Shown in pieces: positions 33,838 to 50,166 of a DNA stretch of 64,000 nucleotides; within the stretch, counting starts at the first letter, position 1, and each line of letters starts with the position of its first letter. This DNA is from an uncultured Clostridia bacterium. Its GTDB lineage: Bacteria; Acidobacteriota; Aminicenantia; UBA2199. The notes below the pieces were generated by a model that saw nothing but the letters and a program-made list of their open reading frames with translations, searched no databases and was not told where the DNA came from. Location of the stretch: assembly GCA_964502145.1 (NCBI GenBank), contig CAZCVI010000010.1, positions 44,068 through 108,067 of the forward strand, written 5' to 3'. Position numbers and translations under genes: made by a program.

Positions 33838-34869
33838 TTAGCGGGTCGAGAACTGCTTGAGAAAGCGCAAATCGCCTGAGTTGAAGCCGCGAATATCGCC
33901 AACCTTATATTTCATCATGGCGAGCCGGGTGAGTCCGAGGCCAAAGGCAAAACCGGAGTATAAATCGGGGTCTATACCACCGTAGCGCAACACGTTGGGA
34001 TGCACCATGCCACAGGGCAGAAGTTCAATCCAACCCGCATGTTTGCACGTGGAACAACCGCTACCGCCACAAATGGTACACTTTAAATCGAGCTCAAAAC
34101 CAGGTTCAACAAAAGGAAAGAAACCGGGTCTGAGACGGATTTCAATATCTTTTTTCAATATTTCTTTTAGTAACAGTTTCATAATATAAATGAGGTTGGC
34201 AATGGAGATGTTTTTATCAATCATCATGCCTTCCAGTTGGAAAAAGGTGTTTTCGTGGGAGGCGTCCATGCTTTCGTTGCGGAAGCAACGGCCTGGGGCG
34301 ATGACACGCAGGGGCGCACCAAACATTTGCATGGCGCGGATTTGACAGGGGGAGGTCTGGGTGCGTAAGCACTGTTGGTTGCTGAGCCAGTAGGTGTCTT
34401 GCATGTCACGGGCAGGATGGTGCGGGGGGATGTTCAGGGCTTGAAAATTATAAAAGTCGCTTTCCACTTCGGGGCCTTCGACAATACGGAAGCCCATGCC
34501 AGTAAACACTTTTTCCACCTCTTTTTGCACGATAGTGACGGGGTGTATTGAACCGGAAAGGAAGGATGTACCGGGCAAAGTGATATCAAAATCTCTGCCT
34601 TTGTCCAGAGTTTTGGCGATATCTTTGGATTGTAATTCCTTTTGTTTTTCTTCAATTTGGGTTTCCAGGAGGGTTTTTACCCGGTTACCTTCTTTGCCCA
34701 CTGCTTTGCGTTGTTCTTGATCGAGGTTTTTCATATCCCTGAGCATGAGGGTTAAGCTGCCTTTTTTGCCCAGGATGCTGATACGAATTTCTTCCAGTTC
34801 CTCGGCACGGGTAATGGTGTTTAACCGGGCAAGAACATTCTCTTCGATCTGTTTGATCTGGCCTATCAT
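33838..34869 (-). CDS. pheS: phenylalanine--tRNA ligase alpha subunit
   Basis: Class II aaRS motifs ('FRNE', 'GLGLTRLAMMKY'). AAGGAG RBS. Confidence 0.9.
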   Translation of the reverse strand: MIGQIKQIEENVLARLNTITRAEELEEIRISILGKKGSLTLMLRDMKNLDQEQRKAVGKEGNRVKTLLETQIEEKQKELQSKDIAKTLDKGRDFDITLPGTSFLSGSIHPVTIVQKEVEKVFTGMGFRIVEGPEVESDFYNFQALNIPPHHPARDMQDTYWLSNQQCLRTQTSPCQIRAMQMFGAPLRVIAPGRCFRNESMDASHENTFFQLEGMMIDKNISIANLIYIMKLLLKEILKKDIEIRLRPGFFPFVEPGFELDLKCTICGGSGCSTCKHAGWIELLPCGMVHPNVLRYGGIDPDLYSGFAFGLGLTRLAMMKYKVGDIRGFNSGDLRFLKQFSTR

Positions 34870-35168: not shown

Positions 35169-36785
35169 TTATTTTTTAAACTTAAGTTTGATATCACCAC
35201 GTTTACCGAGTTGCACGATATCGTCAGGCTTGACCAGGGTTTCGGTTATTTTCTGACCGTTCACGAACGTGCCATTGGTGGAGCCGAGGTCAACAATAAA
35301 GAACTGGTCGCCTTTGGGCAGGATACGCAGGTGATTCTTGGAGACAATTTCACTGTCAATATGGACGGAAGCTGTTTTGGGGTCCCGCCCGACAATTAAT
35401 GGATTGGCAGTGACATTATAAGTACCCACTTCCTCGCCTTTAATGATGACGGTGATGGTGCCAGAGATATCACCTTCCAACATGGTGCCATCTTCTGGAG
35501 CGACCTTGGTGTGATCGGCAGCGGGGTGGGGGGCTTCGGCGACGGGTGGAGCGGCTTGATGCGCGGCATCCTTGGCTGCAGAGGGACTAAATGAAACCCA
35601 TAACACCACCAGGATTAACAATATCAATACAATGGCAATAATGACAACAATTTTATTCTGCTGCCACATCTTTCCAAAGAATCCCATCTCATCGATTTTC
35701 TTTTGGATCACCTGGCTGAGTCTCTGGAGGTTGGGCTCGTTATCCATGTAGGTGAGGGAGGCATTCACCTGGCTCTGGGCATCAAACCAACGCTCTTCCC
35801 ACACGGAATCCATCAATTTATTAAACACGTTGGTGAAGTCAGAACTTTTATTGTATTCGACACCGGCATCCTGGATGAACTCCTTGGCAGAGTTGATGGG
35901 CACACAGAACTTAAAACCATCGGCCATGGTAGCGGCATAGGAGTGAACACCAATAACTTGGCCCTTGGTATCCACGGTGGGACCACCGGAATTGCCAGGG
36001 GAAGTGGCGCAATCGTGTTGAATCACGGACATACCTTTGTAATCTGTCTTAAGAGCAGAAATAGCACCCCGGGTGATGGAGGCTTTTAAGGTATTCTCTT
36101 TGCCTAACATAGGGAACCGTTGGGGATCAACGGCACCAGGAAAACCAATAGTAAACACGGGTTCTTGCAAGACGAGCTTGGAGGAATCACCGAGCATGAT
36201 CACGGGACAATTATCTCTTTCAATCTTGAGAACGGAAATATCTTTACCGCCATTCGGAATAGAGGGGCTGAATTTTTTTAGCTCGAATCTCAGGGTCTCG
36301 GAATTACTGAGGATGACATAGTTGATGGCACCATGATCGACTATCTGGGGTGACTGGTCCTTTTTGAATTTTTCAACGGCATCACTCAGTTCCTGCTGGT
36401 TGGGGTCCCTGCCGTTGGCCTTTTTAAAATCTTCTTTGATTTTATCGGCTATGGCATTGTCTAAAACTTTCTTGGCATAACCTTCTTTATCATTCATGTA
36501 CTCGTTATAGCTGTCCACGACATGGCCATTGGTCACGAGGTAACCATCGGGATTGATAAAGAAGCCGCTACCAGAGCCATAATTGGGGAGCTCTTGGGCT
36601 TGTCCACCCTGCAAGGTAAACTTAATAAACATACCGCTATAAATTAAAGCTACGGCGGGCTGAGTACGATAGGCGGTCATCTGCTCCTCGGTCAGTTTTT
36701 CGCTGGGTCCTGAGGAGCAAGAAACGGTTGTTAATATAAACGCGACGATCACAAAAAGAAAAAAAACTAATTTAGTTATCCTCAT
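35169..36785 (-). CDS. membrane-spanning fusion: lipoprotein-type signal, trypsin-like S1 serine protease domain, TM helix, cytoplasmic FHA domain
   Basis: 'LTTVSCSS' lipobox-like. His 'LVTNGHVV' and Ser 'GNSGGP' catalytic motifs. TM 'IVVIIAIVLILLILVVLWV'. C-terminal FHA 'LIVGRDPKTASVHIDSEIVSKNHLRI...FIVDLGSTNGTFVNGQ'. ATG directly follows the kinase stop (TAAATG). Confidence 0.7.
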   Translation of the reverse strand: MRITKLVFFLFVIVAFILTTVSCSSGPSEKLTEEQMTAYRTQPAVALIYSGMFIKFTLQGGQAQELPNYGSGSGFFINPDGYLVTNGHVVDSYNEYMNDKEGYAKKVLDNAIADKIKEDFKKANGRDPNQQELSDAVEKFKKDQSPQIVDHGAINYVILSNSETLRFELKKFSPSIPNGGKDISVLKIERDNCPVIMLGDSSKLVLQEPVFTIGFPGAVDPQRFPMLGKENTLKASITRGAISALKTDYKGMSVIQHDCATSPGNSGGPTVDTKGQVIGVHSYAATMADGFKFCVPINSAKEFIQDAGVEYNKSSDFTNVFNKLMDSVWEERWFDAQSQVNASLTYMDNEPNLQRLSQVIQKKIDEMGFFGKMWQQNKIVVIIAIVLILLILVVLWVSFSPSAAKDAAHQAAPPVAEAPHPAADHTKVAPEDGTMLEGDISGTITVIIKGEEVGTYNVTANPLIVGRDPKTASVHIDSEIVSKNHLRILPKGDQFFIVDLGSTNGTFVNGQKITETLVKPDDIVQLGKRGDIKLKFKK

Positions 36786-40181: not shown

Positions 40182-41945
40182 TTATTTACTTCTCTCCCGT
40201 AGCGTATCAATGATGTCTTCAATAAAACTTCTCAGGGTTTTGTTGTTGGAGGTCATCAACAGTGTATATTTTGGGCCGCCCCGGGTTTTGATGATGAGGG
40301 CGGGGTTTTTCCGGTTCTTCTTTTTTTTGAAGATACGGACAAAATCGGCGGTCACATCTTGGGAAACCTGTTTGATCTGTGACATGGGTATAGAAAAAGA
40401 GTTTTTGTTGGTGGATTCTTTAAATGGGGCAAAGGAGAGGGTGCCATGGGTGATGCGCAGGATGCCATTGAAAATTTGCGCGCCCTGGTTTTGGTATTGG
40501 ATGCTAAAGTGGATGGACGGGTCGGCTTCCAGTGCTTTGAAGTAGTATGATCGCGCGTTCTTTTTTTCGCCATCGTAAAAATAGGCTTTGCCAATGGCCA
40601 GAAGAATTTCCCCGGATTGGACACCGTTTTTTACAGCATAACGACCGGCAGCCACGGCTTTTTTATATTCTTCATTTGTGATCAACCGCTCCATTCTGCG
40701 CAGGATATCGGCGGCGGTTCCGGGTACGGAAAGCTGGGTGGCAGGGGTGGTTTTGGCAGGTTCTTGAACGGGCGTGTTGGAAGGGGTGTTGCCACCGGGA
40801 GTGGGCGGTGGAGAGGAAGGGGTGGGAGTTTGGGGGGCGGGTTGGAGGGTATTGGGTATCTGGGCGGTGGGAGAGTGGCTGGAGATGGAGGGGGATGGAT
40901 TGTTAGCGGTGGTATGAGCCGTTTTGATGACCGGGGTAGAGCGGGTGTAGAACAGGAGGAAGAGGAGGAGGACGATTAACACTCCGGCCATAGCCAAAAT
41001 AGCGATGCGATGTTGCTTGCTGGGTAGGCGATTAAATTTGAATGTGGGGGTGAATTTTTTAGCCGTGGGTTTAGGTCCAGGGGCGGGGGTTGGGCTTTTT
41101 CCAGGTACAGGAGTCAGGGAAAAAATGGTTTCTTGGATAGCGGCCTCGAATTCGGCAATGTTTTGGAAGCGTTCCGCAGGGTCTTTGGCGATGCTTTTTA
41201 GAATCAAAGCTTCAACGGGGGCAGAGATGGCGGGATTAACCTGGGAAGGCTGACGGGGCACGGCATCAAGAGTTTGTTTGATGACATCGTAACTGGATTT
41301 GCCGGTGATAGTAAAGGGAAGAACGCCGGTAAGCATTTCATAGAGAGTAATACCGAGGGAATAAATATCGGTACGAATATCTGTTTTTTTCCCCAGTAAT
41401 TGTTCGGGTGAAGAATATACGGGGGAACCCAGAGCAGTTCCTACCTTGGTCAGTCCCTCGATACCCTTGACCTTGGCAATACCGAAATCGCAGATTTTGG
41501 CGGTTTGATTTTTGCTTAAAAAGAGATTGGAGGGTTTGATGTCGCGGTGCATAACGCCATTGGCATGGGCATACCCGATACCGCTCAATATTTGCAAGAA
41601 AATCTTTAATCCCTGAACGATGGGCATGGGGCCTTTTTCTTTGATGGATTCTTTCAGGTTTTGCCCTTCGACATATTCCATCACGATGTAATACGCATTT
41701 TTATCCTGGTCAAAGGAGTGGATGGTGACGATATGGCCGTGGTTGAGTTTGGCCTGGGCAATGGCTTCGACGCGGAACCGAGCCATTAATTCTTGACTAC
41801 GGGCGAGTTCGGGTGAAATGATCTTTATCGCTACTTCACGTTCCAGTGACAGGTCACGGGCCAGGAACACAGAACCCATTCCGCCTTCGCCGATCTTTTT
41901 CAAAATACGATAATTGCCTAAGATGGATCCGATTATTTGGTTCAT
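40182..41945 (-). CDS. Hanks-type Ser/Thr protein kinase with TM helix, Pro-rich linker and extracytoplasmic C-terminal domain
   Basis: 'IGEGGMGSVFLARD...VAIK', 'HRDIKPSNLF', 'DFGIAKV'. TM 'IAILAMAGVLIVLLLFLLFY'. Pro/Thr-rich linker, then a ~200-aa C-terminal domain. Confidence 0.85.
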   Translation of the reverse strand: MNQIIGSILGNYRILKKIGEGGMGSVFLARDLSLEREVAIKIISPELARSQELMARFRVEAIAQAKLNHGHIVTIHSFDQDKNAYYIVMEYVEGQNLKESIKEKGPMPIVQGLKIFLQILSGIGYAHANGVMHRDIKPSNLFLSKNQTAKICDFGIAKVKGIEGLTKVGTALGSPVYSSPEQLLGKKTDIRTDIYSLGITLYEMLTGVLPFTITGKSSYDVIKQTLDAVPRQPSQVNPAISAPVEALILKSIAKDPAERFQNIAEFEAAIQETIFSLTPVPGKSPTPAPGPKPTAKKFTPTFKFNRLPSKQHRIAILAMAGVLIVLLLFLLFYTRSTPVIKTAHTTANNPSPSISSHSPTAQIPNTLQPAPQTPTPSSPPPTPGGNTPSNTPVQEPAKTTPATQLSVPGTAADILRRMERLITNEEYKKAVAAGRYAVKNGVQSGEILLAIGKAYFYDGEKKNARSYYFKALEADPSIHFSIQYQNQGAQIFNGILRITHGTLSFAPFKESTNKNSFSIPMSQIKQVSQDVTADFVRIFKKKKNRKNPALIIKTRGGPKYTLLMTSNNKTLRSFIEDIIDTLRERSK

Positions 41946-42133
41946 CTATTTACTTTACCACTGCTTGATTTGAAAGTCAAGCACTGAAGACCGCCTTTAA
42001 GAAAGAGTTAAAGAGATTTTAAAAGGCACGGTGTTTAAAATTCCAGCACTTGATTGGAAAAAGAATTTAGGGTAAACTATAATCTGGTTGCGATCAAAAA
42101 CAATTTTAATGGATTCGTCCGAGGAGTAAAGAA

Positions 42134-43165
42134 ATGAATGAACAGCAAAATGAACAGCAAAATGTGCAAATAAAGATGGATGCAGGAGTGGTTGTTCATC
42201 TGTGGAATCATTGTCATCATTGCCACGCGGAACCTATTATAGGACGCAGATATGAATGTCAGAGCTGTCCGTCGGGACCGGATATTGATCTGTGCGAACC
42301 CTGTTATGAATTGTGGGGCAGGGGTGAGGTTGAACATCCTGCCAAAGATAGTGTTGCGTCTGATTTAACTATTACAGAGCATCGGTTCGAGATGTTTGAG
42401 GGGAAACCTTTGGCGTCATTTCAGGACTGGTTGCTGGTAAAACATCCAGTGGCCGCAGACCCGATTGTGCCGAAACAGGCGGTGTTAAGACCGATTTTTT
42501 CTGCGGGAGTGGATTCAGTGATTGGGAGCTATGCCTTTGTAGCACGTTTGGAAGGAGCGAAGCGACCGCTGATTTTAACGGCATTGCATGTGATGGATGA
42601 ATTGATCAAGAAGTTGGGGATAGATTGTTCACTGGGGCGTGAAGATGATAAAATTAGAAATTATACAGGGAAAGAGTTACCTGCGGTGGTGACGGAAGTG
42701 AACCTGTTTGATGTGTTTGCAGCCAATTGGATGATGGCTCCGATAGGCAATGGGGGCCCGATGCTGGTGTTACCAGATGCGGCGACTGGCGCGGAAGAAC
42801 CCTATTCCAATCGAGATATTGCAGCCTTTTGGGTACATTCGGCGGATGCGGGACATTTTAATCCGTTACCATTGGCCCAATCGGCACCACGGGTAGGTGA
42901 GCCAGTCTGGTTGGCGGCACGTCGGATGGACAATTCAGGAAAACGAACGCTCAAAGCGGTGGTAGTTGAATGTACGGAACGTTCATTGGTATTTAAGTAC
43001 GAAGGGGATGGCGAGAAACCAAAGTACACGAGTGGTGCTCCTATTTTGAACGGGAAGGGCGAAGTGGTGGGGATCAATGTGGGCGGCGGTCGATTAAACG
43101 AGGAAAACCTGGGACATGCGAACCATATAGAGAATATCCGCAGGCACCTGAGTAATGCGAGTTAA
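42134..43165 (+). CDS. ZZ-type zinc finger fused to a trypsin-like (S1) serine protease domain
   Basis: 'HCHHCHAEPIIGRRYECQSCPSGPDIDLCEPCY...HP' fits the ZZ pattern C-x2-C...G.RY.C..C..D.DLC..C...H. Protease: His 'LTALHV', Asp, Ser 'YTSGAPIL...GINVGG'. GAGGAG RBS. Confidence 0.55.
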   Translation: MNEQQNEQQNVQIKMDAGVVVHLWNHCHHCHAEPIIGRRYECQSCPSGPDIDLCEPCYELWGRGEVEHPAKDSVASDLTITEHRFEMFEGKPLASFQDWLLVKHPVAADPIVPKQAVLRPIFSAGVDSVIGSYAFVARLEGAKRPLILTALHVMDELIKKLGIDCSLGREDDKIRNYTGKELPAVVTEVNLFDVFAANWMMAPIGNGGPMLVLPDAATGAEEPYSNRDIAAFWVHSADAGHFNPLPLAQSAPRVGEPVWLAARRMDNSGKRTLKAVVVECTERSLVFKYEGDGEKPKYTSGAPILNGKGEVVGINVGGGRLNEENLGHANHIENIRRHLSNAS

Positions 43166-43491
43166 TCGGTTTTTGTTAGTAAATGGGAACCATAATGCCG
43201 TTTGAAGCGGGTGGAGGAGTATTTTTCCAGTTTCCATTGGGGGATTTTGCAAACTGGGCAGACTTTGTTGAACCATTTATTGCGAAGCCAGCGGGCGGAA
43301 CGGCTGTTGCGAGAATTGTTGATGAGAAATGTTTTGTTGCAATGGGTGGTGATGCGGGCTTGTTCCCCGATTTTTTCAACGGTTTTGATGCCATGTAAAA
43401 TGCCTTGACGGGAAGGCCATAGTTTGATCGTGTCGATCAATTTGAATAATTCAATACGTTTGCGGTAGTACCGCCTGGGTTGTTCGGTCAT
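43162..43491 (-). CDS. pylSn: pyrrolysyl-tRNA synthetase N-terminal tRNA-binding domain protein
   Basis: 'LWPSRQGILHGIK...INNSRNSRSARWLRNKWFNKVCPVCK' parallels the PylS N-terminal 'LWMSRTGTLHKIK...[26 protein letters not shown]'. Last gene of the pyl operon. Confidence 0.7.
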   Translation of the reverse strand: MTEQPRRYYRKRIELFKLIDTIKLWPSRQGILHGIKTVEKIGEQARITTHCNKTFLINNSRNSRSARWLRNKWFNKVCPVCKIPQWKLEKYSSTRFKRHYGSHLLTKTD

Positions 43492-43530
43492 GGTAGTGGC
43501 TCATTTTTAATTGATTTATATAGTGCAAAA

Positions 43531-43583
43531 GTGGACTAACTGGACGATATGGACTGAGTGGACAATGTGGACGAGAGGTGGAT
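43531..43583. repeat. tandem 9-bp array NTGGACNNN x5-6 in the pylD-pylSn intergenic region
   Basis: gTGGACtaa cTGGACgat aTGGACtga gTGGACaat gTGGACgag aggTGGAT, read directly. Confidence 0.85.
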
Positions 43584-43653
43584 TTTTGGAAAAGTTTTTG
43601 GGCTGACAGAGGCACTGTGAAGATGGGTTTAAGATAATGCGATCTAATGTTTT

Positions 43654-44538
43654 TCATTGCTGATTTTTGCGAAAATAATGGACGGCGGCGTCAACGGCCA
43701 TAACGGCGGTGCCGATTTGCAGGGGATCGTGCAAGAGACGGAGTTTTATCTGTTGGATGGCAGCACTGGTTAATCCCAAAGGCACACCGGGCGCGGCGAT
43801 ATAGGTGTGTGGATTGATGTCTGATTTTTGGATGGTATTGGCGGCATTGGTGGCTTCAATGATGAACGAGTGACGCGATAACGCGGGAGCCAAAGCAGGT
43901 TCAATAGAGATGCGGGATGAGCTGCCGGTTATCCTCATAATTTCCATGGCTGCGGCAGAACTGCGTTGTTGGTGGATATCAAACAAAGATACTCGCGCCC
44001 CGCGTTTGATAGCTTCGATGGCAGAATACGTCCCGACTGCTCCACAGCCAATGATTAACAGCTCCCTGTCTTTTAAGCCCACTTTGGGCGTTGGAGCTTG
44101 ATGGCGGATCATCAATTCCAATCCAGCTACAAAACCACGGGCAGTAGATGGGGTATTGTCCACAACGCGACTGTTGCGGGTGTCCAGCGCAATAAAACGT
44201 TTGTCATCGGCCATCATCACAATGGCGGCGCCAGCTTCCACTGCCTCGGCTAGACCCGCAACATCGGGCTCACGGGTAACAAAAGATTTAAATCCAATGT
44301 GCTGCACAATAGCAGCCACAGTGCTGGAAAAACCTCCAATCACACCCTGACCAGACATGATTGGAACAACCGCGATAAGAGTGGATGGAATACAGACTTG
44401 AAGCTGCTGGCTGGTGATGCCCAAGGCATAACAGGCAATCCCTTGCAAGGTCGTGCCTGTTTGCAATTGCAAAAGAGTGTCGTAGAGAAGGAGCTGGGCA
44501 GTTAAGTCTTTGATGTCGTTTACGGTCAGACGAGTCAT
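43654..44538 (-). CDS. pylD: pyrrolysine biosynthesis dehydrogenase
   Basis: 'IAVVPIMSGQGVIGGFSSTVAAIVQHIGFKSFVT', 'AAIVMMADD', 'FIIEATNAANTI', 'APGVPLGL' parallel Methanosarcina PylD blocks. AGGAAA RBS. Confidence 0.85.
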   Translation of the reverse strand: MTRLTVNDIKDLTAQLLLYDTLLQLQTGTTLQGIACYALGITSQQLQVCIPSTLIAVVPIMSGQGVIGGFSSTVAAIVQHIGFKSFVTREPDVAGLAEAVEAGAAIVMMADDKRFIALDTRNSRVVDNTPSTARGFVAGLELMIRHQAPTPKVGLKDRELLIIGCGAVGTYSAIEAIKRGARVSLFDIHQQRSSAAAMEIMRITGSSSRISIEPALAPALSRHSFIIEATNAANTIQKSDINPHTYIAAPGVPLGLTSAAIQQIKLRLLHDPLQIGTAVMAVDAAVHYFRKNQQ

Positions 44539-44545
44539 GTTTTTC

Positions 44546-45685
44546 CTAGCGGATAATGCTTTGCCTTATATTTTGAATAACGCGGTCGCTTTTTTGCTGG
44601 GCCGACTGGAGGTCTGTGGCTTCAATGATCAAGGTAGCCACCCATGAATAGGCACTGGGGCTATAATTGGTGATGGCTTCATCGGCACCAAAAAAGTCGT
44701 GGCACAGAAACAACGGGCCAACCTCTGACATAATATGCTCACCACTAATTCGTATCCCACGGGGGGAAACTTCAATGTGCTGGTAAATCGCACCCCGTTT
44801 TTGGTCAGCAGCTTTTATAACTTTTTGACTGGTAAAACATTGGGCCAATAACGGCATCATGTTCCACCCGGAAGATTGGAAAACAGCGGTGGGAGTCTGA
44901 CTGGGGAAACGGGCGTCAATCTCCAATACTTTTAATTGGTTATCATGAAGAATAATTTCAACATCCATGATCCCCCGCAACTGGATGGATTGTGCAATGT
45001 GCAAGGAAATCTTCTCGAACTGCTTTACCTGGGTAGGAGATAATAACGTGGGGGCCGATACTCGTTTACAATCATAACTGTCATCCATGTCAAGGTCAGT
45101 GACTTGCAAGGGAATATAATTCCCGGGAGTGCCCATCACTTCAAGAGAATAGGACGGCCCTTCGACGTATTCCTGAATGACCCAGCCGGGAGGCGGCAGG
45201 GAGGCGGAAAAGGAGGAAAAGAACTCTTCCAGTTGCGGTCTATCATTAAAAAGCCGAACGCCACGACTACCACTACTGCTCTCAGGTTTGGCGATAACTG
45301 GGAATGAACAATTTGGCCAGGGTTTGGGGGCAGGCACGCCAAGTTCTGCAAAAAGATGGTCGGAACGGAGCTTGGAAGAAGAAATAGCATAAGTCGCTGC
45401 ATCAAAGGCAAAAGGAATGGCAGAGGTGAGACTCCACTGGTGTAATGCAGCGAGTGCGGCGGCATTCTCAGTGGCGGGGACAACAAGGTCTATATCTTTG
45501 ATATCTCTTATGCAAGATTGCCATTTCGACTGGTCCGTGACATCCAGCTCAATGAAACGATGGCACATTTGGGCAGCGGCCACATGGGGGTGTTTGTCGA
45601 TTAAAAGGGTTTCCCATCCGGCATGATGGGCCAAATAAGCGACTTCTACGCCTTGAAGACTGCCGCCGACGATAAGGATTTTCAT
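44546..45685 (-). CDS. pylC: 3-methylornithine--L-lysine ligase (ATP-grasp)
   Basis: 'KILIVGGSLQGVEVAYLAHHAG', 'LEIDARFPSQTPT' (identical to the PylC block). AGGAG RBS. Start overlaps the pylB stop (ATGA). Own stop is TAG. Confidence 0.85.
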   Translation of the reverse strand: MKILIVGGSLQGVEVAYLAHHAGWETLLIDKHPHVAAAQMCHRFIELDVTDQSKWQSCIRDIKDIDLVVPATENAAALAALHQWSLTSAIPFAFDAATYAISSSKLRSDHLFAELGVPAPKPWPNCSFPVIAKPESSSGSRGVRLFNDRPQLEEFFSSFSASLPPPGWVIQEYVEGPSYSLEVMGTPGNYIPLQVTDLDMDDSYDCKRVSAPTLLSPTQVKQFEKISLHIAQSIQLRGIMDVEIILHDNQLKVLEIDARFPSQTPTAVFQSSGWNMMPLLAQCFTSQKVIKAADQKRGAIYQHIEVSPRGIRISGEHIMSEVGPLFLCHDFFGADEAITNYSPSAYSWVATLIIEATDLQSAQQKSDRVIQNIRQSIIR

Positions 45686-46770
45686 GATTTAAGCTCCTGG
45701 TTTTTTAAAACGCGGTTCTTTATCCAATCTTGGTATTGCTGGTGGGAAGCGATTTGTAAACCGCACTCTGTCAATATGGTTAACACGTTATCGGTGGTTC
45801 TGCGGGCATCATCAATATCCAGTGAGGATTGCGCTACTCCAGCCAGTCCCTGTTGGGGTGGCACGATGGAAGTCACAACATTGGCACCTGCATCCATACG
45901 CCGCTTCAAGCCAGCCAGCCCTTCGACATCCAATGTGGCGGGAATGAGTCGATCAGGGAACAAAATACGCATGAGCGCGATAAGAATTAATTCGGTCAAA
46001 GGTTCTGGAAAAGGGAAATGGGCCATCGGTGTGCCCTGTTGCGGCACAAAATTCATGGCCCGCACTTGGTCAGCGTTACTGGCCCGCATCTCGGTTAGTG
46101 AATGGGCGATATCATGGGAAGTTTCGCCCACGCCCACGAGGATGCCTTCTTCGGTTAACATCCCCAGTTGATGGGCTTGGTGTTTGCTATTTAAACGGGT
46201 CAAATAATCCTGGCCGGGTCTAAGCTGTTGGAAAAGAGTTGGGTTGTGAGTCTCCTGGTAACAAGCAAACCAGGAAGCACCGGCAACGGCAAACTGGGCC
46301 AATATAGGGGGGGGGACTACGCCGGGGGAGATCATAATGGGAAGAAAAACGGCGGTTTTTATAGCTTGCACCAAGCGGATCAAGGAGTGGAAACCATGCT
46401 CACCTGAAGGGTCTTCGCCCATGGTCAGATCAATCAGATGAACACCAGAACGTGCCAGTTGAATGGCGGCTTCAATGATTTCGGTTTCTGCTTTCCTGTA
46501 CCTGAAACGCGGCGAAAGGGTATTCTGGGCACGGTAAAAACAAAAATTACAATTGTTGCGACAATAGGTGCTAATATAAAGGAAACCATAGAGAAAAACA
46601 TGGTTCCCGAAATACTGCTGACGGATAGAACGGGCAGTGCTAAAAAGGGCTTCCAATAGCTGGGGTTGGCGAAGTTGCAGGATAGTGGTGATTTCCTTCT
46701 GGGTGAGGGCGTGCTGGTGGGAGGCTTTTGCCAGTATGGTGTCCAATATAGGCGGGGGAGTGAAATGCAC
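45682..46770 (-). CDS. pylB: 3-methylornithine synthase (radical SAM lysine mutase)
   Basis: 'YFGNHVFLYGFLYISTYCRNNCNFCFYRAQN', 'LIDLTMGEDP', 'LPIMISPG', 'YQETH', 'GANVVTSIVPP' parallel PylB. GTG start with GAGG RBS. Confidence 0.85.
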   Translation of the reverse strand: MHFTPPPILDTILAKASHQHALTQKEITTILQLRQPQLLEALFSTARSIRQQYFGNHVFLYGFLYISTYCRNNCNFCFYRAQNTLSPRFRYRKAETEIIEAAIQLARSGVHLIDLTMGEDPSGEHGFHSLIRLVQAIKTAVFLPIMISPGVVPPPILAQFAVAGASWFACYQETHNPTLFQQLRPGQDYLTRLNSKHQAHQLGMLTEEGILVGVGETSHDIAHSLTEMRASNADQVRAMNFVPQQGTPMAHFPFPEPLTELILIALMRILFPDRLIPATLDVEGLAGLKRRMDAGANVVTSIVPPQQGLAGVAQSSLDIDDARRTTDNVLTILTECGLQIASHQQYQDWIKNRVLKNQELKS

Positions 46771-46779
46771 TGGTGCGCC

Positions 46780-47622
46780 TCAAATGTTTAACCGAATACC
46801 GTTGAGATAGGCGAGACTGCGACCCATTTTACCAAGGTTGTGGCTGTTCTGAGTGACCATCAGCAAACGTTCCAGCCCGAATCCGATGCCCACCCATGGT
46901 TCGACAATGCGCCAGGCCCGGTCCAACGGATGGGGACCGATGGCAGCCGAACCCACCTCTATTTTATCTTTTCCGGCGACCACGTCGATGGTCTCACCAT
47001 AGACGTTAGAGGTTTCGGTTTCCAGAGTATAATCGGTTAATCCGGCGGTGCGGGTCACCAGGGCGGCGAGTTCTTCCAGTCGTGCTTGCCGGTTTTCTAA
47101 AGGTAATCCCATTTCCACGAGATTGAGCATGGTAAATTCACTGGAATGTAACGAACCCTGGGACTCCTTGCGAAAACAAGAACCGACTTCAAAGATAGAC
47201 ACGGGTTTCTCCCATAAACGCAATAAATCCTTTAATACATAATATAAATGAGGGGCCAGCATGGGACGGAGACATTTGTCCTTGTCCAACCAATATACCT
47301 GGGAGAAGAGGGGATGGGTTTCGTCGATGGTCATTTTGGCCAATAGCCCGCGAGACATGATGGTGGGGGTAATGACCTGCACAAAACCGGCGGCGGTAAG
47401 GGTTTCTATCAATTGGCTTTCTAAGCGGCACAGGGCGGGCCTGTGCTCATGTTCCCGGAAATAAGTTAATTGGGTTCTGGCTTGTTTGATATAATGATTT
47501 TCTAATTTATGAAAAGAGTTGTCCCGGTCTGCTGGGCTGGTGAATGCTTGTGATAGTTCCTGGGGGGGGACTTCTAGTTCGATCAATCTTCGATGTTGGA
47601 CTTCAGACCAAGTGAGTGTCAT
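46780..47622 (-). CDS. pylSc: pyrrolysyl-tRNA synthetase catalytic domain (bacterial split form)
   Basis: 'PTIMSRGLLAKMTIDETHPLFSQVYWLDKDKCLRPMLAPHLYYVL...IFEVGSCFRKESQGSLHSSEFTMLN' is near-identical in pattern to Desulfitobacterium PylSc. 280 aa. Confidence 0.9.
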   Translation of the reverse strand: MTLTWSEVQHRRLIELEVPPQELSQAFTSPADRDNSFHKLENHYIKQARTQLTYFREHEHRPALCRLESQLIETLTAAGFVQVITPTIMSRGLLAKMTIDETHPLFSQVYWLDKDKCLRPMLAPHLYYVLKDLLRLWEKPVSIFEVGSCFRKESQGSLHSSEFTMLNLVEMGLPLENRQARLEELAALVTRTAGLTDYTLETETSNVYGETIDVVAGKDKIEVGSAAIGPHPLDRAWRIVEPWVGIGFGLERLLMVTQNSHNLGKMGRSLAYLNGIRLNI

Positions 47623-47624
47623 GG

Positions 47625-47700
47625 ATTGCCTGGGGAATTATGGGAATGGGAGTTATGGGAATTATGGGAAGAATGGGGGTTATGGGAAAAGAGGGGTAGT
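47625..47700. repeat. tandem 9-bp array (TTATGGGAA-like units x ~7) in the pylSc 5' leader
   Basis: gaattatgg gaatgggag ttatgggaa ttatgggaa gaatggggg ttatgggaa, read directly. Confidence 0.8.
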
Positions 47701-47773
47701 GGTGTGTGAGCCAGCGGTTTGGGTAATCTGTTTAAATTGCTTGCCATATTATACCTACTCAAACTAATAAACG

Positions 47774-47844
47774 GCGAGGAGTTCGGGAGTTGCACCCGAC
47801 TATATGGATTTAGAATCCATACGATCCACTTACGATCCACTCCC
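47774..47844 (-). tRNA. pylT: tRNA-Pyl (anticodon CUA, amber suppressor)
   Basis: Minus-strand sequence GGGGAGT-G-GATC-GTAAGTG-GATC-G-TATGGA-TTCTAAA-TCCATA-TAG-TCGGG-TGCAACT-CCCGA-ACTCCTC-G(CC). 6-bp anticodon stem, CUA anticodon, 3-nt variable loop, one nt between acceptor and D stems, G73 discriminator. Immediately upstream of pylSc. Confidence 0.8.
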
Positions 47845-47858
47845 CATTCGCCGAAATA

Positions 47859-47887
47859 TATCTTAAAATAATATTCCTTAATTGTCA
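47859..47887 (-). promoter_or_regulatory. sigma70-like promoter for pylT (-35 TTGACA, 17-bp spacer, -10 TAAGAT)
   Basis: Minus strand TTGACAattaaggaatattatttTAAGAT. The -10 ends 14 nt before tRNA position 1. Confidence 0.45.
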
Positions 47888-47916
47888 ATTGTTGGGTTCT
47901 TTTTTTTGCCACGGGT

Positions 47917-48618
47917 TTATCGGAGAATACGTTGGCGGCAATTAAATGTCTGGCATGTGTCGCAGAAAGAATAATCATTATCGAAATCATGAATACTGGC
48001 AGGCCCTGCGACCAATACACCGGAAATAGATTTTATAGGCACCATTAAAAAACTGGGATTGAGTTGGATACCAATCGCCTCGGGTTGGAGATACTGGAAT
48101 AATTTTCCCTGGCCACTGATGTGCCAACCGCAGTAACCAGGACTGTAAAGCAATACTTTTAGTCCTGCTCTGGGTTCAGGCAAGCGGTTTAAAAAGAGTG
48201 TCTCTGTACAAAGGGCTGCTTTATCGGCACCATAAGAGGCGATGGTGTCCAACATATACCCCAACGCAAATCCATTGGCCTGGGTTTTCATGAGTTGATC
48301 GATTTTGGCACTCACGGCGGGTCCGAGGGTGCAGGCAAACAAACCCAATTGATGGGCACGGGGGAAAATATGTTCCAACGGTGTATCCTTTTCATTCTGG
48401 CCGAGACCGGGATATATCAGGCTGAATTGGGTGCTGGAAAGATCAGCTATCAAACCGATGGGAGCAGCCAATTGCATAAACAACTCTGCTGCGGACCGAT
48501 AGAGAGCCTTGACCCGTTCTGGGGGTTGGGTGCCACGGGGTATCCCTTGCATGAAGAAAATTTCCTCTTCATCGGGGGCTATAACTTCAATAGATAGATT
48601 AAATGTTTCTTTATTCAT
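47917..48618 (-). CDS. MetH activation-domain-like protein (Met_synt_B12-like), tentative
   Basis: 'LLYSPGYCGWHISGQGKLFQYL...LNPSFLMVPIKSISGVLVAGP' resembles the SPGY...W...P.KS.SG core of the methionine-synthase reactivation domain. Start overlaps the stop of the MttB-like gene. Confidence 0.4.
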   Translation of the reverse strand: MNKETFNLSIEVIAPDEEEIFFMQGIPRGTQPPERVKALYRSAAELFMQLAAPIGLIADLSSTQFSLIYPGLGQNEKDTPLEHIFPRAHQLGLFACTLGPAVSAKIDQLMKTQANGFALGYMLDTIASYGADKAALCTETLFLNRLPEPRAGLKVLLYSPGYCGWHISGQGKLFQYLQPEAIGIQLNPSFLMVPIKSISGVLVAGPASIHDFDNDYSFCDTCQTFNCRQRILR

Positions 48619-50099
48619 TAGTATCCGGTGACATCAGGAAGTGTGCTGATACCGTGGCGGTGGGCTTCGGCTTTCATGATTTGGATTAATTGCTCTTTGA
48701 TAGCGGGATTGAGGGAAGATGGCTGATAGGATTCGAGCAGGTTTAACATCTCCTTGTGCGCCCGTTCGCCCAGGGTCAAACTGCCTTCTTCCTGCCAGCG
48801 GGACTGGTTGGTGCGATCAATGATGGGGCCGGGAAAATAATGTTCGGCTTTAAGAAAACGGCGGGTATGTTTGGATATCAACAGGTGCTGGTCTTTCAAT
48901 AATTCCTGGTACCTGGGCACAATGGGGAAATCCTCCTGGGGATCAATACCATTAAGCATACGAAACACCATGCCGCATATTTCATTGTCAACAATCAATT
49001 TTTCTATACTAAATGTATTGACAAAATCGAGCATCCCGGGGCCGGAAATACTATTGATCCCGGATAAGGCGGCCATAGTGGCACCCATGGCTGTTTCCAA
49101 ACCGGCCTGGGCGTCCAGAAGCTTGGCATCGCTCAACGCGATGTAAGCCTGGGTGGGAATACCGAGGTATTTCCCGATTTCATTGTAACCGCAATCCAGC
49201 ATCTGGGTTTCTATGGCGCCCAGCGGCGTGGTTTCGTAGCGGACATCAAAGGAAGCAGGGGCACCACCATATAATAATGGCGTGCCCGGGTTACTTAATT
49301 GACTGATTACAATACCGCTGAGTGTTTCGGCGGTGTGCCCCACCAATGAACCCACGAGGGTAACTGGAGCGGTGAAACCAGCCAGGGGCATGGAAATCAA
49401 TTCGATGGGAATACCACTTCTGCCGCAATCGACAATGTCCTGGCATATTCTGGCACTCCATTTTAACGGGGTGGTGGAACAGCAGGAAAAAATGGTCAGG
49501 GGTTTTGCTTTTAATGCAGTTTCATTGCCCCGGACAGCCACCTGCATCTCTTTCATTACTTTGAAGCCCTCGGCACTGAAGGTACCGGTAACCACGGGTT
49601 TTTCTCCGAAAAGAAGGTTCAGGTAGAGGCGGTAGCTGTCGGATATTTTTTCACTGACATCGGCGGGAACAAAGGCGGTACTCTGGGCGGCAATATGCTT
49701 TAACTGGGCGGTCACCTTGACAAAACGAATATAGTCGGCGGTATTGGGCTGGCGCGACTGTTGGGTAGTGGAATCCAAGATGTGCAAGGCGGAAGAAGCG
49801 GGGGTAAAATGAATGGTGTAACCGGAAAAATCATGGGTCTCATTGCCTTTGACATCATATAACTTGAAGGTAGGGGGCACACTGTCCAACGCGAGGTCGA
49901 TCATAGCGCCGGTGATAAACACATTGTGGGCATCGGAATGGGGCACGGGTTCGACGGTGGCACCAAAATCGGATAGCATAAGGACTGTCTTTTTATCGTA
50001 AATTTTTATACCGATAGTGCTTAGAATGTCGCGTGCTTCAGATATAATACGTTCGATCAACTCTTTGTTCAAAAATCTTAGATTGGGTCTGACTGCCAT
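48618..50099 (-). CDS. MttB-superfamily (trimethylamine / quaternary-amine : corrinoid) methyltransferase, no in-frame amber codon
   Basis: ~493 aa. N-terminal 'LRFLNKELIERIISEARDILSTIGIKIYDKKTVLMLSDFGATV' and overall length fit PF06253. Continuous ORF with no internal TAG. Start set at ATG 50099 (GGAGAA RBS). The track ORF starts at TTG 50141. Confidence 0.65.
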   Translation of the reverse strand: MAVRPNLRFLNKELIERIISEARDILSTIGIKIYDKKTVLMLSDFGATVEPVPHSDAHNVFITGAMIDLALDSVPPTFKLYDVKGNETHDFSGYTIHFTPASSALHILDSTTQQSRQPNTADYIRFVKVTAQLKHIAAQSTAFVPADVSEKISDSYRLYLNLLFGEKPVVTGTFSAEGFKVMKEMQVAVRGNETALKAKPLTIFSCCSTTPLKWSARICQDIVDCGRSGIPIELISMPLAGFTAPVTLVGSLVGHTAETLSGIVISQLSNPGTPLLYGGAPASFDVRYETTPLGAIETQMLDCGYNEIGKYLGIPTQAYIALSDAKLLDAQAGLETAMGATMAALSGINSISGPGMLDFVNTFSIEKLIVDNEICGMVFRMLNGIDPQEDFPIVPRYQELLKDQHLLISKHTRRFLKAEHYFPGPIIDRTNQSRWQEEGSLTLGERAHKEMLNLLESYQPSSLNPAIKEQLIQIMKAEAHRHGISTLPDVTGY

Positions 50100-50166
50100 A
50101 ACATTGTTCTCCATAGGGTGTGGCCGTTTAATCCGGGCCAATTACGGGGTTTTGGGGGTTGAGATT

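What the first reader, a model, noticed from the sequence alone, without database searches (positions are those of the whole stretch)
42134..43165. ZZ-type zinc finger fused to a trypsin-like protease, divergent from the kinase operon and adjacent to the pyl cassette
The N-terminal 60 residues match the ZZ zinc-finger pattern (C-x2-C ... G-x-RY-x-C-x2-C ... D-x-DLC-x2-C ... H) known mainly from eukaryotic proteins such as dystrophin, CBP/p300 and p62. They are followed by a complete S1 protease domain with His-Asp-Ser. A ZZ finger on a bacterial protease is uncommon. The 190-bp divergent promoter region shared with the upstream kinase contains three copies of a TCAAGCACTG/CAGTGCTTGA-type motif, suggesting co-regulation.
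Basis: partly seen in the sequence, partly recalled or inferred. Interest (0 to 1): 0.5.

Follow-up and report, generated by a model that had tools for sequence, protein, structure and literature searches.

The report
Bacterial ZZ zinc-finger–serine protease fusion
The gene really does encode a ZZ-type zinc finger fused to a trypsin-fold serine protease, but it belongs to a widespread, uncharacterised bacterial family with its own promoter, and it is tied in this lineage to the pyrrolysine gene cluster rather than to the neighbouring kinase operon.

Summary

The fusion is not a one-off. At least 246 clusters share the architecture, from Acidobacteriota, Aminicenantes, Omnitrophota, Proteobacteria and others. 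No paper describing it was found.

The closest solved relatives of the ZZ part are eukaryotic readers of protein N-termini (PRT1, ZZZ3, HERC2, p62). One of their two amine-binding Asp residues is kept (D52). The other is His in 88 of 96 members.

The co-regulation idea fails. The kinase operon is absent upstream in four of the five other clade members, and the third motif copy is the -35 box of the gene's own conserved promoter.

The tail-to-tail junction with the pyl cassette is kept in all six members of one clade and in none of about 58 other loci. Elsewhere the family often sits in NRPS or peptide clusters.

Best reading: a cytoplasmic protease whose substrate is chosen by the ZZ finger. 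The substrate is unknown.

The parts
42134..43165 (+). ORF of the ZZ-serine protease, 343 aa, stop TAA at 43163-43165
   Evidence: The identical protein is found on 8 other contigs.
42191..42385 (+). ZZ-type binuclear zinc finger, residues ~20-84. Proposed ligands are C27, C30, C54, C57 for Zn1 and C42, C45, H68, H83 for Zn2. The family motif is V-H-x-W-x-x-C-H-x-C.
   Evidence: Pfam ZZ 31 bits. Profile against PDB: PRT1 ZZ E 7e-9. Gapless 43-residue alignment to PRT1. All eight ligand positions are kept in 94/96 members, and C45, H68 and H83 are lost together in the other two. The model has strands 20-22, 39-42, 52-54 and helix 55-62.
42386..42478 (+). Conserved linker subdomain, residues ~85-115 (F85, W99 and P110 are invariant or nearly so)
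   Evidence: strand 85-88, helix 93-100, pLDDT above 90.
42479..43153 (+). Chymotrypsin-fold (S1/PA clan) serine protease domain, residues ~116-340. Catalytic codons: His152 (42587-42589), Asp228 (42815-42817), Ser300 (43031-43033). Family-specific C-terminal motif G-H-A-N-H-x3-I-x2-H.
42050..42078 (+). The gene's own sigma-70-type promoter, TTGATT-N17-TAAACT.
   Evidence: 2 matches in the window against 0.13 expected. The same element at the same spacing lies upstream of the orthologs in L041, L042, L065 and L067.
42121..42126 (+). Shine-Dalgarno-like GAGGAG, 7 nt before the ATG
   Evidence: read directly. GGAG is also present in L041 and L040.
41952..41986 (-). Promoter-like TTGACT-N17-TAAAGT of the kinase gene (41980-41952), overlapped by the inverted repeat CAGTGCTTGA-N8-TCAAGCAGTG (41959-41986). 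This belongs to the kinase side and not to the protease gene.
   Evidence: It is partly conserved at the start of L040 and absent in L041, L042, L065 and L067.
43162..43491 (-). pylSn (small subunit of pyrrolysyl-tRNA synthetase), convergent with the protease gene, stop codons overlapping. First gene of the conserved neighbouring block pylSn-pylD-pylC-pylB-pylSc-tRNA-Pyl (to 47845).
   Evidence: The junction is conserved in L040, L041, L042, L065 and L067.

Best explanation
The gene encodes a cytoplasmic, zinc-dependent 'reader-protease'. An N-terminal ZZ finger binding two zinc ions is packed rigidly, through a conserved linker, onto a chymotrypsin-fold serine protease with the triad His152-Asp228-Ser300.

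Shown: both domains are present, all ligand and catalytic residues are conserved, the two domains are predicted as a single rigid body, there is no signal peptide, the gene has its own conserved promoter, and the protein belongs to a conserved bacterial family that is patchily distributed across phyla.

Inferred: the ZZ finger is the substrate-selecting module. It most likely binds a short peptide segment, plausibly a free N-terminus, using the conserved D50-x-D52-L-C acidic loop together with the family-specific H22, W24 and H28. This holds the substrate at a fixed geometry relative to the active site, so that cleavage is selective rather than general.

The gene is an independent transcription unit. 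It is not part of the Ser/Thr kinase/FHA/PP2C operon. In this uncultured lineage it is inherited as a block with the pyl cassette.
Against: The position of the second amine-binding Asp (PRT1 Asp312, p62 Asp129) is His in 88/96 members and Asp in 1/96, so canonical N-degron chemistry is not preserved. The two His ligands are 14 residues apart, against 1-3 residues in solved ZZ domains, so the Zn2 geometry is unverified. I could not read the model coordinates, so whether the ZZ pocket faces the active site is unknown. No substrate, activity or zinc content has been measured for any member. Neighbourhoods across the family are heterogeneous and do not point to a single substrate.
Confidence: 0.5

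Rival explanations
1. The ZZ finger is only a structural or regulatory appendage (a fold stabiliser, an oligomerisation or autoinhibition module, or a redox or zinc sensor). The protease takes its substrates through its own cleft, as a general cytoplasmic housekeeping or quality-control protease.
For: The domains are predicted as one rigid body (pTM 0.91), which is what a structural cap would look like. The canonical first Asp of reader ZZ domains is replaced by His. The His-rich surfaces (H22, H26, H28; C-terminal H328, H331, H338) could form an interface or an extra metal site. Two family members have lost the Zn2 site yet keep the protease.
Against: W24 is invariant and H22, D50 and D52 are nearly so. 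By the gapless alignment to PRT1, W24 occupies the position of PRT1 Gly308, whose main chain contacts the bound peptide. This is stronger conservation than a plain scaffold would need. The same protease core swaps in other ligand-binding domains in other proteins, which fits a targeting role for the N-terminal module.
Confidence: 0.25
2. The family acts on small, non-ribosomally made peptides or isopeptides (processing, recycling, proofreading or self-protection). In the window's lineage the relevant pathway would be pyrrolysine synthesis or use, for example hydrolysis of PylC-type isopeptide by-products or turnover of a Pyl-system component.
For: NRPS-type genes lie within 10 kb in about 15-20 of 60-odd loci. 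MbtH is directly upstream in L020/L061, L021, L046 and L050-52. CmlA, PhyH, carrier-protein and ABC-exporter genes are nearby in L023, L031 and L034. Lasso-type genes occur in L014, L019 and L024-26. An S51 peptidase is adjacent in L012, L013, L033, L048 and L049. The junction with the pyl cassette is kept in 6 of 6 clade members despite five different upstream flanks, and one of the six was predicted from the tree before it was checked.
Against: The window has no NRPS gene near the protease gene. Many loci show neither theme. No background rate was computed, and related genomes are not independent samples. The six pyl-linked members form one clade of one uncultured lineage (PheS 78-82% identical), so plain inherited synteny explains the junction. 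No pyl genes occur in about 58 other loci. S1 endopeptidases normally need several residues on both sides of the scissile bond.
Confidence: 0.15
3. One reading: the protease is co-regulated with the divergent Ser/Thr kinase/FHA/PP2C operon through shared operator motifs, and it works in that signalling pathway.
For: In the window the two genes share a 188-bp region. An inverted repeat (41959-41986) overlaps the kinase promoter, and a related half-site overlaps the -35 box of the protease promoter. The operon ends with another Trypsin_2 protein fused to FHA.
Against: The kinase is absent upstream of the ortholog in L041, L042, L065 and L067. The inverted repeat is found only in the window's own copies and, degraded, in L040. 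The conserved part of the third copy is the promoter's -35 hexamer. The two proteases are barely alike (25% over 104 residues).
Confidence: 0.05
4. It is an anti-phage or conflict-system effector protease.
For: The family is distributed patchily across phyla. Trypsin-like effectors are common in conflict systems (background knowledge, not tested here).
Against: There is no PADLOC match. No recurring partner typical of defence systems appears next to it. GC content is the same as in the flanks. In Aminicenantes it sits in an operon with a sugar-nucleotidyl transferase among cell-envelope genes.
Confidence: 0.03

Closest known systems
Eukaryotic ZZ-type zinc fingers that read protein N-termini (PRT1, p62/SQSTM1, ZZZ3, HERC2, BIG/UBR4, KCMF1)
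   Same: PF00569 profile match above threshold. C-x2-C ... C-x2-C ... D-L-C-x2-C ... H ... H ligand pattern. Beta-beta-beta-alpha topology in the model. Gapless 43-residue alignment to PRT1. The Asp equivalent to PRT1 Asp336 / p62 Asp149 (D52) and the one equivalent to p62 Asp147 (D50) are kept.
   Different: It is bacterial. It is fused to a protease rather than to RING/HECT ligase or autophagy-receptor modules. The Asp after the first Cys is replaced by a nearly invariant His (H28). There is an invariant Trp (W24) where PRT1 has Gly308. The two His ligands are 14 residues apart instead of 1-3. No binding data exist.
Bacterial S1-fold proteases of the HtrA/DegS/Rv3671c (MarP) and Glu-endopeptidase (V8) groups
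   Different: At most 22% identity. No PDZ domain and no signal peptide or membrane anchor. T-S-G-A-P around the serine. A family-specific C-terminal G-H-A-N-H motif. The NCBIfam HtrA models score 12-13 bits against cut-offs of 450-470.
ClpS-ClpAP N-degron pathway of bacteria (a functional analogy only)
   Same: If the ZZ finger reads N-termini, the logic is the same: an N-terminus reader hands a substrate to a protease.
   Different: The fold is unrelated. Nothing about this analogy was tested.
ZZ-less secreted or lipoprotein relatives of the same protease core (for example P0289, P0295, P0303)
   Same: They match profile positions ~93-325 at E 1e-34 to 1e-28 and share the R-P-E-F, L-T-A-x-H, D-x-A-A-F-W and T-S-G-A-P-x-L-N motifs.
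   Different: They carry an N-terminal signal peptide or lipobox instead of ZZ, and they lack the G-H-A-N-H C-terminal motif.

Membership tests
ZZ-type zinc finger (Pfam PF00569) | Profile score at or above the curated gathering threshold | tested here: met
   31.0 bits against 21.4. 94 of 96 homologs match at E<=1e-3. Family profile against PDB ZZ domains: E 7e-9.
ZZ-type zinc finger (Pfam PF00569) | Eight zinc ligands in the order C,C,C,C,C,C,H,H, forming two sites | tested here: inconclusive
   The six Cys lie in three C-x2-C pairs and H68 and H83 are conserved in 94/96. C45, H68 and H83 are lost together in 2/96. However, the His-His spacing is 14 residues against 1-3 in solved ZZ domains, and the model coordinates could not be inspected.
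ZZ-type zinc finger (Pfam PF00569) | Three beta-strands followed by one alpha-helix | tested here: met
   AlphaFold model: strands 20-22, 39-42, 52-54 and helix 55-62, with pLDDT about 88-97. The topology is as described for PRT1 ZZ.
ZZ-type zinc finger (Pfam PF00569) | Binds two zinc ions | not testable with these tools
   Needs metal analysis of the purified protein.
N-terminus-reading ZZ subgroup (PRT1, p62, ZZZ3, HERC2) | Two conserved Asp residues that bind the substrate's alpha-NH3+ group (PRT1 Asp312 and Asp336) | tested here: not met
   D52 aligns with Asp336 (Asp in 91/96). The Asp312 position is H28 (His 88/96, Asp 1/96).
N-terminus-reading ZZ subgroup (PRT1, p62, ZZZ3, HERC2) | Measured binding of peptides with a free N-terminus | not testable with these tools
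   Needs ITC or a peptide array with the isolated domain.
S1 / PA-clan serine protease (Pfam Trypsin_2 PF13365) | Profile score at or above the gathering threshold | tested here: met
   31.2 bits against 27.6. 93 of 96 homologs match.
S1 / PA-clan serine protease (Pfam Trypsin_2 PF13365) | Catalytic His, Asp and Ser in that order, and conserved | tested here: met
   H152, D228 and S300 are 96/96.
S1 / PA-clan serine protease (Pfam Trypsin_2 PF13365) | Double beta-barrel chymotrypsin fold | tested here: met
S1 / PA-clan serine protease (Pfam Trypsin_2 PF13365) | Peptidase activity | not testable with these tools
   Needs an enzyme assay.
HtrA/DegP/DegQ (S1C) proteases | C-terminal PDZ domain(s), export signal, equivalog-level similarity | tested here: not met
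   No PDZ hit. The N-terminus is hydrophilic. NCBIfam HtrA models score 12-13.4 bits against cut-offs of 450-470.
Ser/Thr kinase-FHA-PP2C signalling operon (as a co-regulated member) | Conserved linkage with the kinase operon in orthologous loci | tested here: not met
   The kinase is upstream only in the window (the upstream gene of L040 is off the contig). The upstream gene is PP2C in L041, PqqD in L042, PheS in L065 and AhpC in L067.
pyl cassette (pylT, pylS or pylSn+pylSc, pylB, pylC, pylD) | One of the five components that define the cassette (established knowledge) | tested here: not met
   The protein matches none of the Pyl models. The actual pylSn, D, C, B, Sc genes and tRNA-Pyl are all separately present.
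pyl cassette (pylT, pylS or pylSn+pylSc, pylB, pylC, pylD) | Conserved physical linkage to the cassette | tested here: inconclusive
   6 of 6 members of one clade, and 0 of about 58 loci elsewhere. The clade is one lineage, so inheritance is not excluded.
Known anti-phage defence proteins (PADLOC-DB) | Match to a defence-system model | tested here: not met
   No match at E<=0.01.

The most novel reading that the evidence does not exclude
Bacteria have a one-polypeptide, ATP-independent 'N-end-rule-like' device. A ZZ finger homologous to the eukaryotic N-recognin module reads the free N-terminus of a peptide or protein, with a His-for-Asp change that could shift specificity, for example towards formylated, acidic or non-proteinogenic N-termini. 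A rigidly attached serine protease then cuts at a fixed distance. This would also place the origin, or an early transfer, of the ZZ reader module in prokaryotes. In one lineage it would be linked to control of the pyrrolysine system.
Probability: 0.15. Interest if true: 0.75.

Novelty: new variant of a known kind. Interest (0 to 1): 0.45.

Why it matters
ZZ fingers have been described as restricted to eukaryotes (PMC4506424, 2015). Their best-understood role there is to read protein N-termini for ubiquitin ligases and autophagy receptors. A conserved bacterial family that attaches the same finger directly to a protease gives a simple, testable system for asking two questions: whether ZZ-type N-terminus recognition exists in bacteria, and what it selects. 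At least one cultured carrier is available (Rheinheimera sp. SA_1). The family's frequent position inside NRPS or peptide clusters, and its fixed position next to the pyl cassette in one uncultured lineage, suggest candidate substrates. If it turns out to be only a capped housekeeping protease, the finding is a modest annotation improvement.

Tried and rejected
- **Kinase co-regulation:** rejected by comparing orthologous loci and by showing that the third motif copy is a conserved -35 box.
- **Exact inverted repeat in other loci:** found only in the window's own copies.
- **Defence-system membership:** no PADLOC hit.
- **HtrA membership:** NCBIfam scores are far below the cut-offs and there is no PDZ domain.
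- **Paralogy with the Trypsin_2-FHA protein of the kinase operon:** only 25% identity over 104 residues.
- **Structured RNA or riboswitch in 41000-48500:** no Rfam hit.
- **Compositional island:** GC is 0.42-0.52 throughout 33-51 kb, with no step at the gene.
- **AlphaFold DB fold search:** the library was unavailable.
- **Reading model coordinates to measure the distance from the ZZ pocket to Ser300:** coordinates are not exposed.
- **Taxonomy from PheS:** only unnamed metagenomic relatives at 78-82% identity; the nearest named are Ruminiclostridium at 69-70%, so the phylum is unresolved.
- **Multi-ZZ proteins in the exhaustive search (P0283, P0341, P0347):** they look like eukaryotic p62/NBR1-like proteins and say nothing about bacterial architectures.
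- **Literature:** no paper describing a ZZ-protease fusion or a protease next to pylSn was found. The library excludes most subscription journals.
Full report
**What is there.** The window has an uninterrupted ORF at 42134-43165 on the + strand (343 aa). A GAGGAG sequence lies 7 nt before the ATG. Pfam places a ZZ zinc finger (PF00569) at residues 26-59, scoring 31.0 bits against a gathering score of 21.4. It places a Trypsin_2 domain (PF13365) at residues 141-314, scoring 31.2 bits against 27.6. The catalytic codons can be read directly from the sequence: His152 (cat, 42587-42589), Asp228 (gat, 42815-42817) and Ser300 (agt, 43031-43033). The N-terminus (MNEQQNEQQNVQIKMDAG...) has no hydrophobic stretch, so the protein is expected to stay in the cytoplasm, as a Cys-rich zinc protein should.

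**Surroundings.**
- Upstream and divergent, across 188 bp, lies an operon on the - strand: Ser/Thr kinase (40182-41945), two FHA proteins, PP2C phosphatase, a second kinase and a Trypsin_2-FHA fusion, followed by pheS and pheT.
- Downstream and convergent lies the pyrrolysine cassette: pylSn (43162-43491; TIGR03912 128 bits), pylD, pylC, pylB, pylSc and tRNA-Pyl (47773-47845).
- The stop codons of the protease gene and pylSn overlap.
- GC content is even across the region, and no Rfam family matches it.

**It is a family, not a singleton.**
- A word-indexed search of 5.8 billion proteins found 246 clusters at E<=1e-3. The best 120 are nearly all 318-346 aa and carry the same two Pfam domains.
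- Some are labelled by their sources as 'ZZ-type protein' or 'trypsin-like peptidase/ZZ type zinc finger protein'.
- When 96 members were scanned one by one, 94 hit ZZ and 93 hit Trypsin_2.
- A scan of one genome per GTDB species found 35 loci. They come from Acidobacteriota, Aminicenantes, Omnitrophota, Alpha-, Beta- and Gammaproteobacteria (including the cultured Rheinheimera sp. SA_1), Opitutaceae, Deferrimicrobium and others.
- An exhaustive HMMER search of 1.84 billion representatives at 50% identity gave 61 hits at E<=1e-30, 553 at E<=1e-10 and 1856 at E<=1e-3.
- The full-length fusion collapses to a few dozen representatives. Most weaker hits are proteins of about 250 aa that match only the protease part.
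- Three of those that I read carry signal-peptide or lipobox N-termini. Others fuse the same core to a periplasmic binding domain or to GYF_2.
- The protease core is therefore a module that is combined with different N- or C-terminal binding domains, and the ZZ version is the cytoplasmic one.

**Residue-level anatomy.**
- In the 96-sequence alignment, H152, D228 and S300 are invariant.
- All eight proposed zinc ligands (C27, C30, C42, C45, C54, C57, H68, H83) are present in 94 sequences.
- The two exceptions (P0113, P0117) lose C45, H68 and H83 together. This is what one expects if these three residues plus C42 form the second zinc site.
- W24 is invariant. H22 is present in 95/96, D50 in 89/96 and D52 in 91/96.
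- A C-terminal motif G-H-A-N-H-x3-I-x2-H (H328 96/96; H331 and H338 94/96) is specific to the ZZ-fused proteins and is missing from the secreted relatives. Its role is unknown.

**Structure.**
- AlphaFold2 with the 96-sequence alignment gave mean pLDDT 92.6 and pTM 0.91 for the whole chain. The finger, a conserved linker (residues ~85-115) and the protease are thus predicted as one rigid body.
- Residues 20-62 have three strands and a helix, which is the ZZ topology described for PRT1.
- The fold is a generic chymotrypsin fold with no close solved relative.
I therefore could not measure where the ZZ pocket lies relative to Ser300, and this is the main gap in the argument.

**What kind of ZZ.**
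- The family profile's best matches among all PDB chains are the ZZ domains of PRT1 (E 7e-9), ZZZ3, HERC2, BIG and p62. These are the ZZ domains known to bind free protein N-termini.
- The window sequence aligns to PRT1 without gaps over 43 residues.
- In PRT1, Asp312 and Asp336 hold the alpha-NH3+ group of the N-degron (PMC12370974).
- D52 of the window protein aligns with Asp336 and is conserved.
- The residue aligning with Asp312, directly after the first Cys, is His28. It is His in 88 of 96 members and Asp in only one.
- The family therefore keeps the acidic D-x-D-L-C loop but has rebuilt the other wall of the pocket with His and an invariant Trp.
- The two His ligands are 14 residues apart, whereas solved ZZ domains are of the HxH, HxxH or HxxxH type.
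- I therefore file the domain as a ZZ finger, but not as a proven member of the N-degron-reading subgroup.

**The motif and the co-regulation idea.**
- At up to one mismatch, TCAAGCACTG occurs twice in the intergenic region (41959-41968 on the - strand, 41977-41986 on the +). The two copies are the arms of one inverted repeat.
- That repeat overlaps a promoter-like TTGACT-N17-TAAAGT on the kinase strand (41980-41952). The -10 box ends 6 nt before the kinase ATG, which would suggest a leaderless transcript.
- The third 'copy' (42045-42054) has two mismatches and overlaps a TTGATT -35 box (42050-42055). TTGATT-N17-TAAACT (42050-42078) is found at the same spacing upstream of the orthologous gene in L041, L042 and L065, and as TTGATT-N17-TACACT in L067, while the flanking sequence differs.
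- The pattern TTGAYT-N16-18-TAAAST occurs only at these two places in the 64-kb window, against 0.13 expected.
- The simplest reading is two back-to-back sigma-70-type promoters, plus one possible operator on the kinase side.
- The protease gene keeps its promoter whatever lies upstream, and the kinase is not a conserved neighbour.

**The conserved neighbour is the pyl cassette.**
- The three closest homologs all sit tail-to-tail with pylSn-pylD-pylC-pylB-pylSc: P0002 (70% identity, L040), P0003 (65%, L041) and P0004 (60%, L042). So does P0026 (57%, L065).
- In a neighbour-joining tree of 96 members these four and the window protein fall in one clade of six. I had not yet looked at the sixth member, P0009. 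Its locus (L067) also has the cassette in the same arrangement.
- The upstream flank differs among the clade members:
  - window: kinase operon;
  - L041: PP2C plus Trypsin_2-FHA;
  - L042: PqqD, ATP-grasp and ornithine decarboxylase;
  - L065: pheS and pheT directly;
  - L067: AhpC and thioredoxin genes.
- The 3' ends overlap or lie less than 40 nt apart in all six.
- In four of them, and also in the short contig L043, a conserved membrane-protein ORF of about 160 aa lies between the protease gene and pylSn.
- Outside the clade, none of about 58 loci has pyl genes.
- PheS of the window is 78-82% identical to a handful of unnamed metagenomic proteins, one from the L041 contig, and 69-70% identical to Ruminiclostridium. 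The clade is thus one uncultured lineage of unresolved phylum.
- Inherited synteny is therefore enough to explain the junction. Its survival through at least four changes of the other flank is nevertheless notable, and I record it as unexplained.

**Neighbourhoods elsewhere.** Clustering of ORFs around 28 reference-genome loci and the window, followed by a tblastn survey of all 68 loci, showed several recurring themes:
- **NRPS-type genes within 10 kb in about 15-20 loci.** MbtH lies directly upstream in L020/L061, L021, L046 and L050-52. Multi-kilobase synthetases occur in L017, L020, L023, L027 and L034. CmlA-type hydroxylase, PhyH dioxygenase, carrier-protein and ABC-exporter genes occur in L023, L031 and L034.
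- **A lasso-peptide-like set** (asparagine-synthetase homolog, PqqD, B2-like protein) in five alphaproteobacterial loci.
- **An adjacent S51 peptidase** in L012, L013, L033, L048 and L049.
- **An adjacent metallophosphoesterase** in L016, L018, L029, L036 and L062.
- **An upstream nucleotidyl transferase** in the Aminicenantes-type loci (L005, L006, L037, L066, L068).

I did not compute a background rate, and related genomes are not independent. The peptide theme is therefore a lead and not a result. The window itself has no NRPS gene near the protease gene.

**How it most likely works.**
- Shown: a cytoplasmic protein with an intact two-zinc ZZ finger and an intact serine-protease triad, predicted as one rigid unit, transcribed from its own promoter and conserved across phyla.
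- Inferred: the finger is the selecting module. It binds a short peptide segment, plausibly a free N-terminus, and holds it in fixed register with the active site so that cleavage is selective.
- I put this at about 0.5.
- The main rival, at 0.25, is that the finger is a structural or regulatory cap.
- A role tied to non-ribosomal peptide or pyrrolysine chemistry (0.15) overlaps with the main model and names possible substrates.
- Co-regulation with the kinase operon (0.05) and a defence role (0.03; no PADLOC match) are unlikely.

**Comparison with what is known, and novelty.** Both domains are known kinds. The fusion is already present and auto-annotated in public databases, but I found no paper describing it, and a 2015 analysis states that ZZ occurs only in eukaryotes. 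I rate it a new variant of a known kind: a bacterial ZZ finger with a rebuilt pocket, fused to a protease. Interest is moderate at 0.45. The gene is one ordinary member of a sizeable family, but that family offers a direct test of whether ZZ-type N-terminus reading exists in bacteria.

Noticed in passing
window 48618-50141 (-), next to tRNA-Pyl; also L040 6477-7961 and L042 14839-16308: The MttB-family methyltransferase gene beside the pyl cassette is an uninterrupted 507-aa ORF that covers Pfam MTTB positions 23-490 of 500, with no in-frame TAG. The methyltransferase that travels with the cassette therefore seems not to need pyrrolysine, which raises the question of which genes in this lineage do use it.
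   Followed up: partly
window 41952-41980 (-) and the kinase ATG at 41945: The kinase's promoter-like TTGACT-N17-TAAAGT ends 6 nt before its ATG and there is no Shine-Dalgarno sequence. This suggests a leaderless mRNA. A 10-8-10 inverted repeat (41959-41986) overlaps the promoter like an operator.
   Followed up: partly
window 35169-36785 (-): The last gene of the kinase/FHA/PP2C operon is a 538-aa Trypsin_2 + FHA fusion. Its protease part matches the PADLOC 'RT-Protease_XI' models (E 1.6e-12). It persists in L041 next to PP2C even though the kinases are absent there.
   Followed up: partly
L041 9026-9496, L042 8975-9478, L065 8971-9501, L067 2955-3455, L043 1271-1780 (all - strand): A conserved ORF of about 160 aa (40-51% identity among L041, L042, L065 and L043; L067 by position and size only) lies between the protease gene and pylSn and often overlaps the protease gene's 3' end. 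It looks like a membrane protein from its hydrophobic stretches (my reading of the sequences) and has no Pfam hit on record. It is absent from the window and from L040.
   Followed up: partly
window 42137-42160: An exact tandem duplication of 12 nt (AATGAACAGCAA x2) produces the N-terminal NEQQNEQQ. It is not seen in any homolog.
   Followed up: no
window 43162-43165: The protease gene and pylSn converge with overlapping stop codons, and no terminator-like hairpin lies between them. Transcripts from the two sides should overlap, which could allow antisense interference with the pyl operon.
   Followed up: no
window 47773-47845 (-): ARAGORN calls tRNA-Pyl (anticodon CTA), but no Rfam family reaches its gathering score anywhere in 41000-48500.
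   Followed up: no
window 33838-34869 (-), pheS: The closest PheS relatives (78-82%) are all unnamed metagenomic proteins. The nearest named ones are Ruminiclostridium at 69-70%. The Pyl-encoding organism is thus an uncultured lineage whose phylum I could not settle.
   Followed up: partly
L042 5016-7584 (-): In one clade member the gene upstream of the ZZ-protease is a PqqD-family protein, followed by an ATP-grasp enzyme and an ornithine/DAP decarboxylase. This looks like a small peptide-modification cluster.
   Followed up: no
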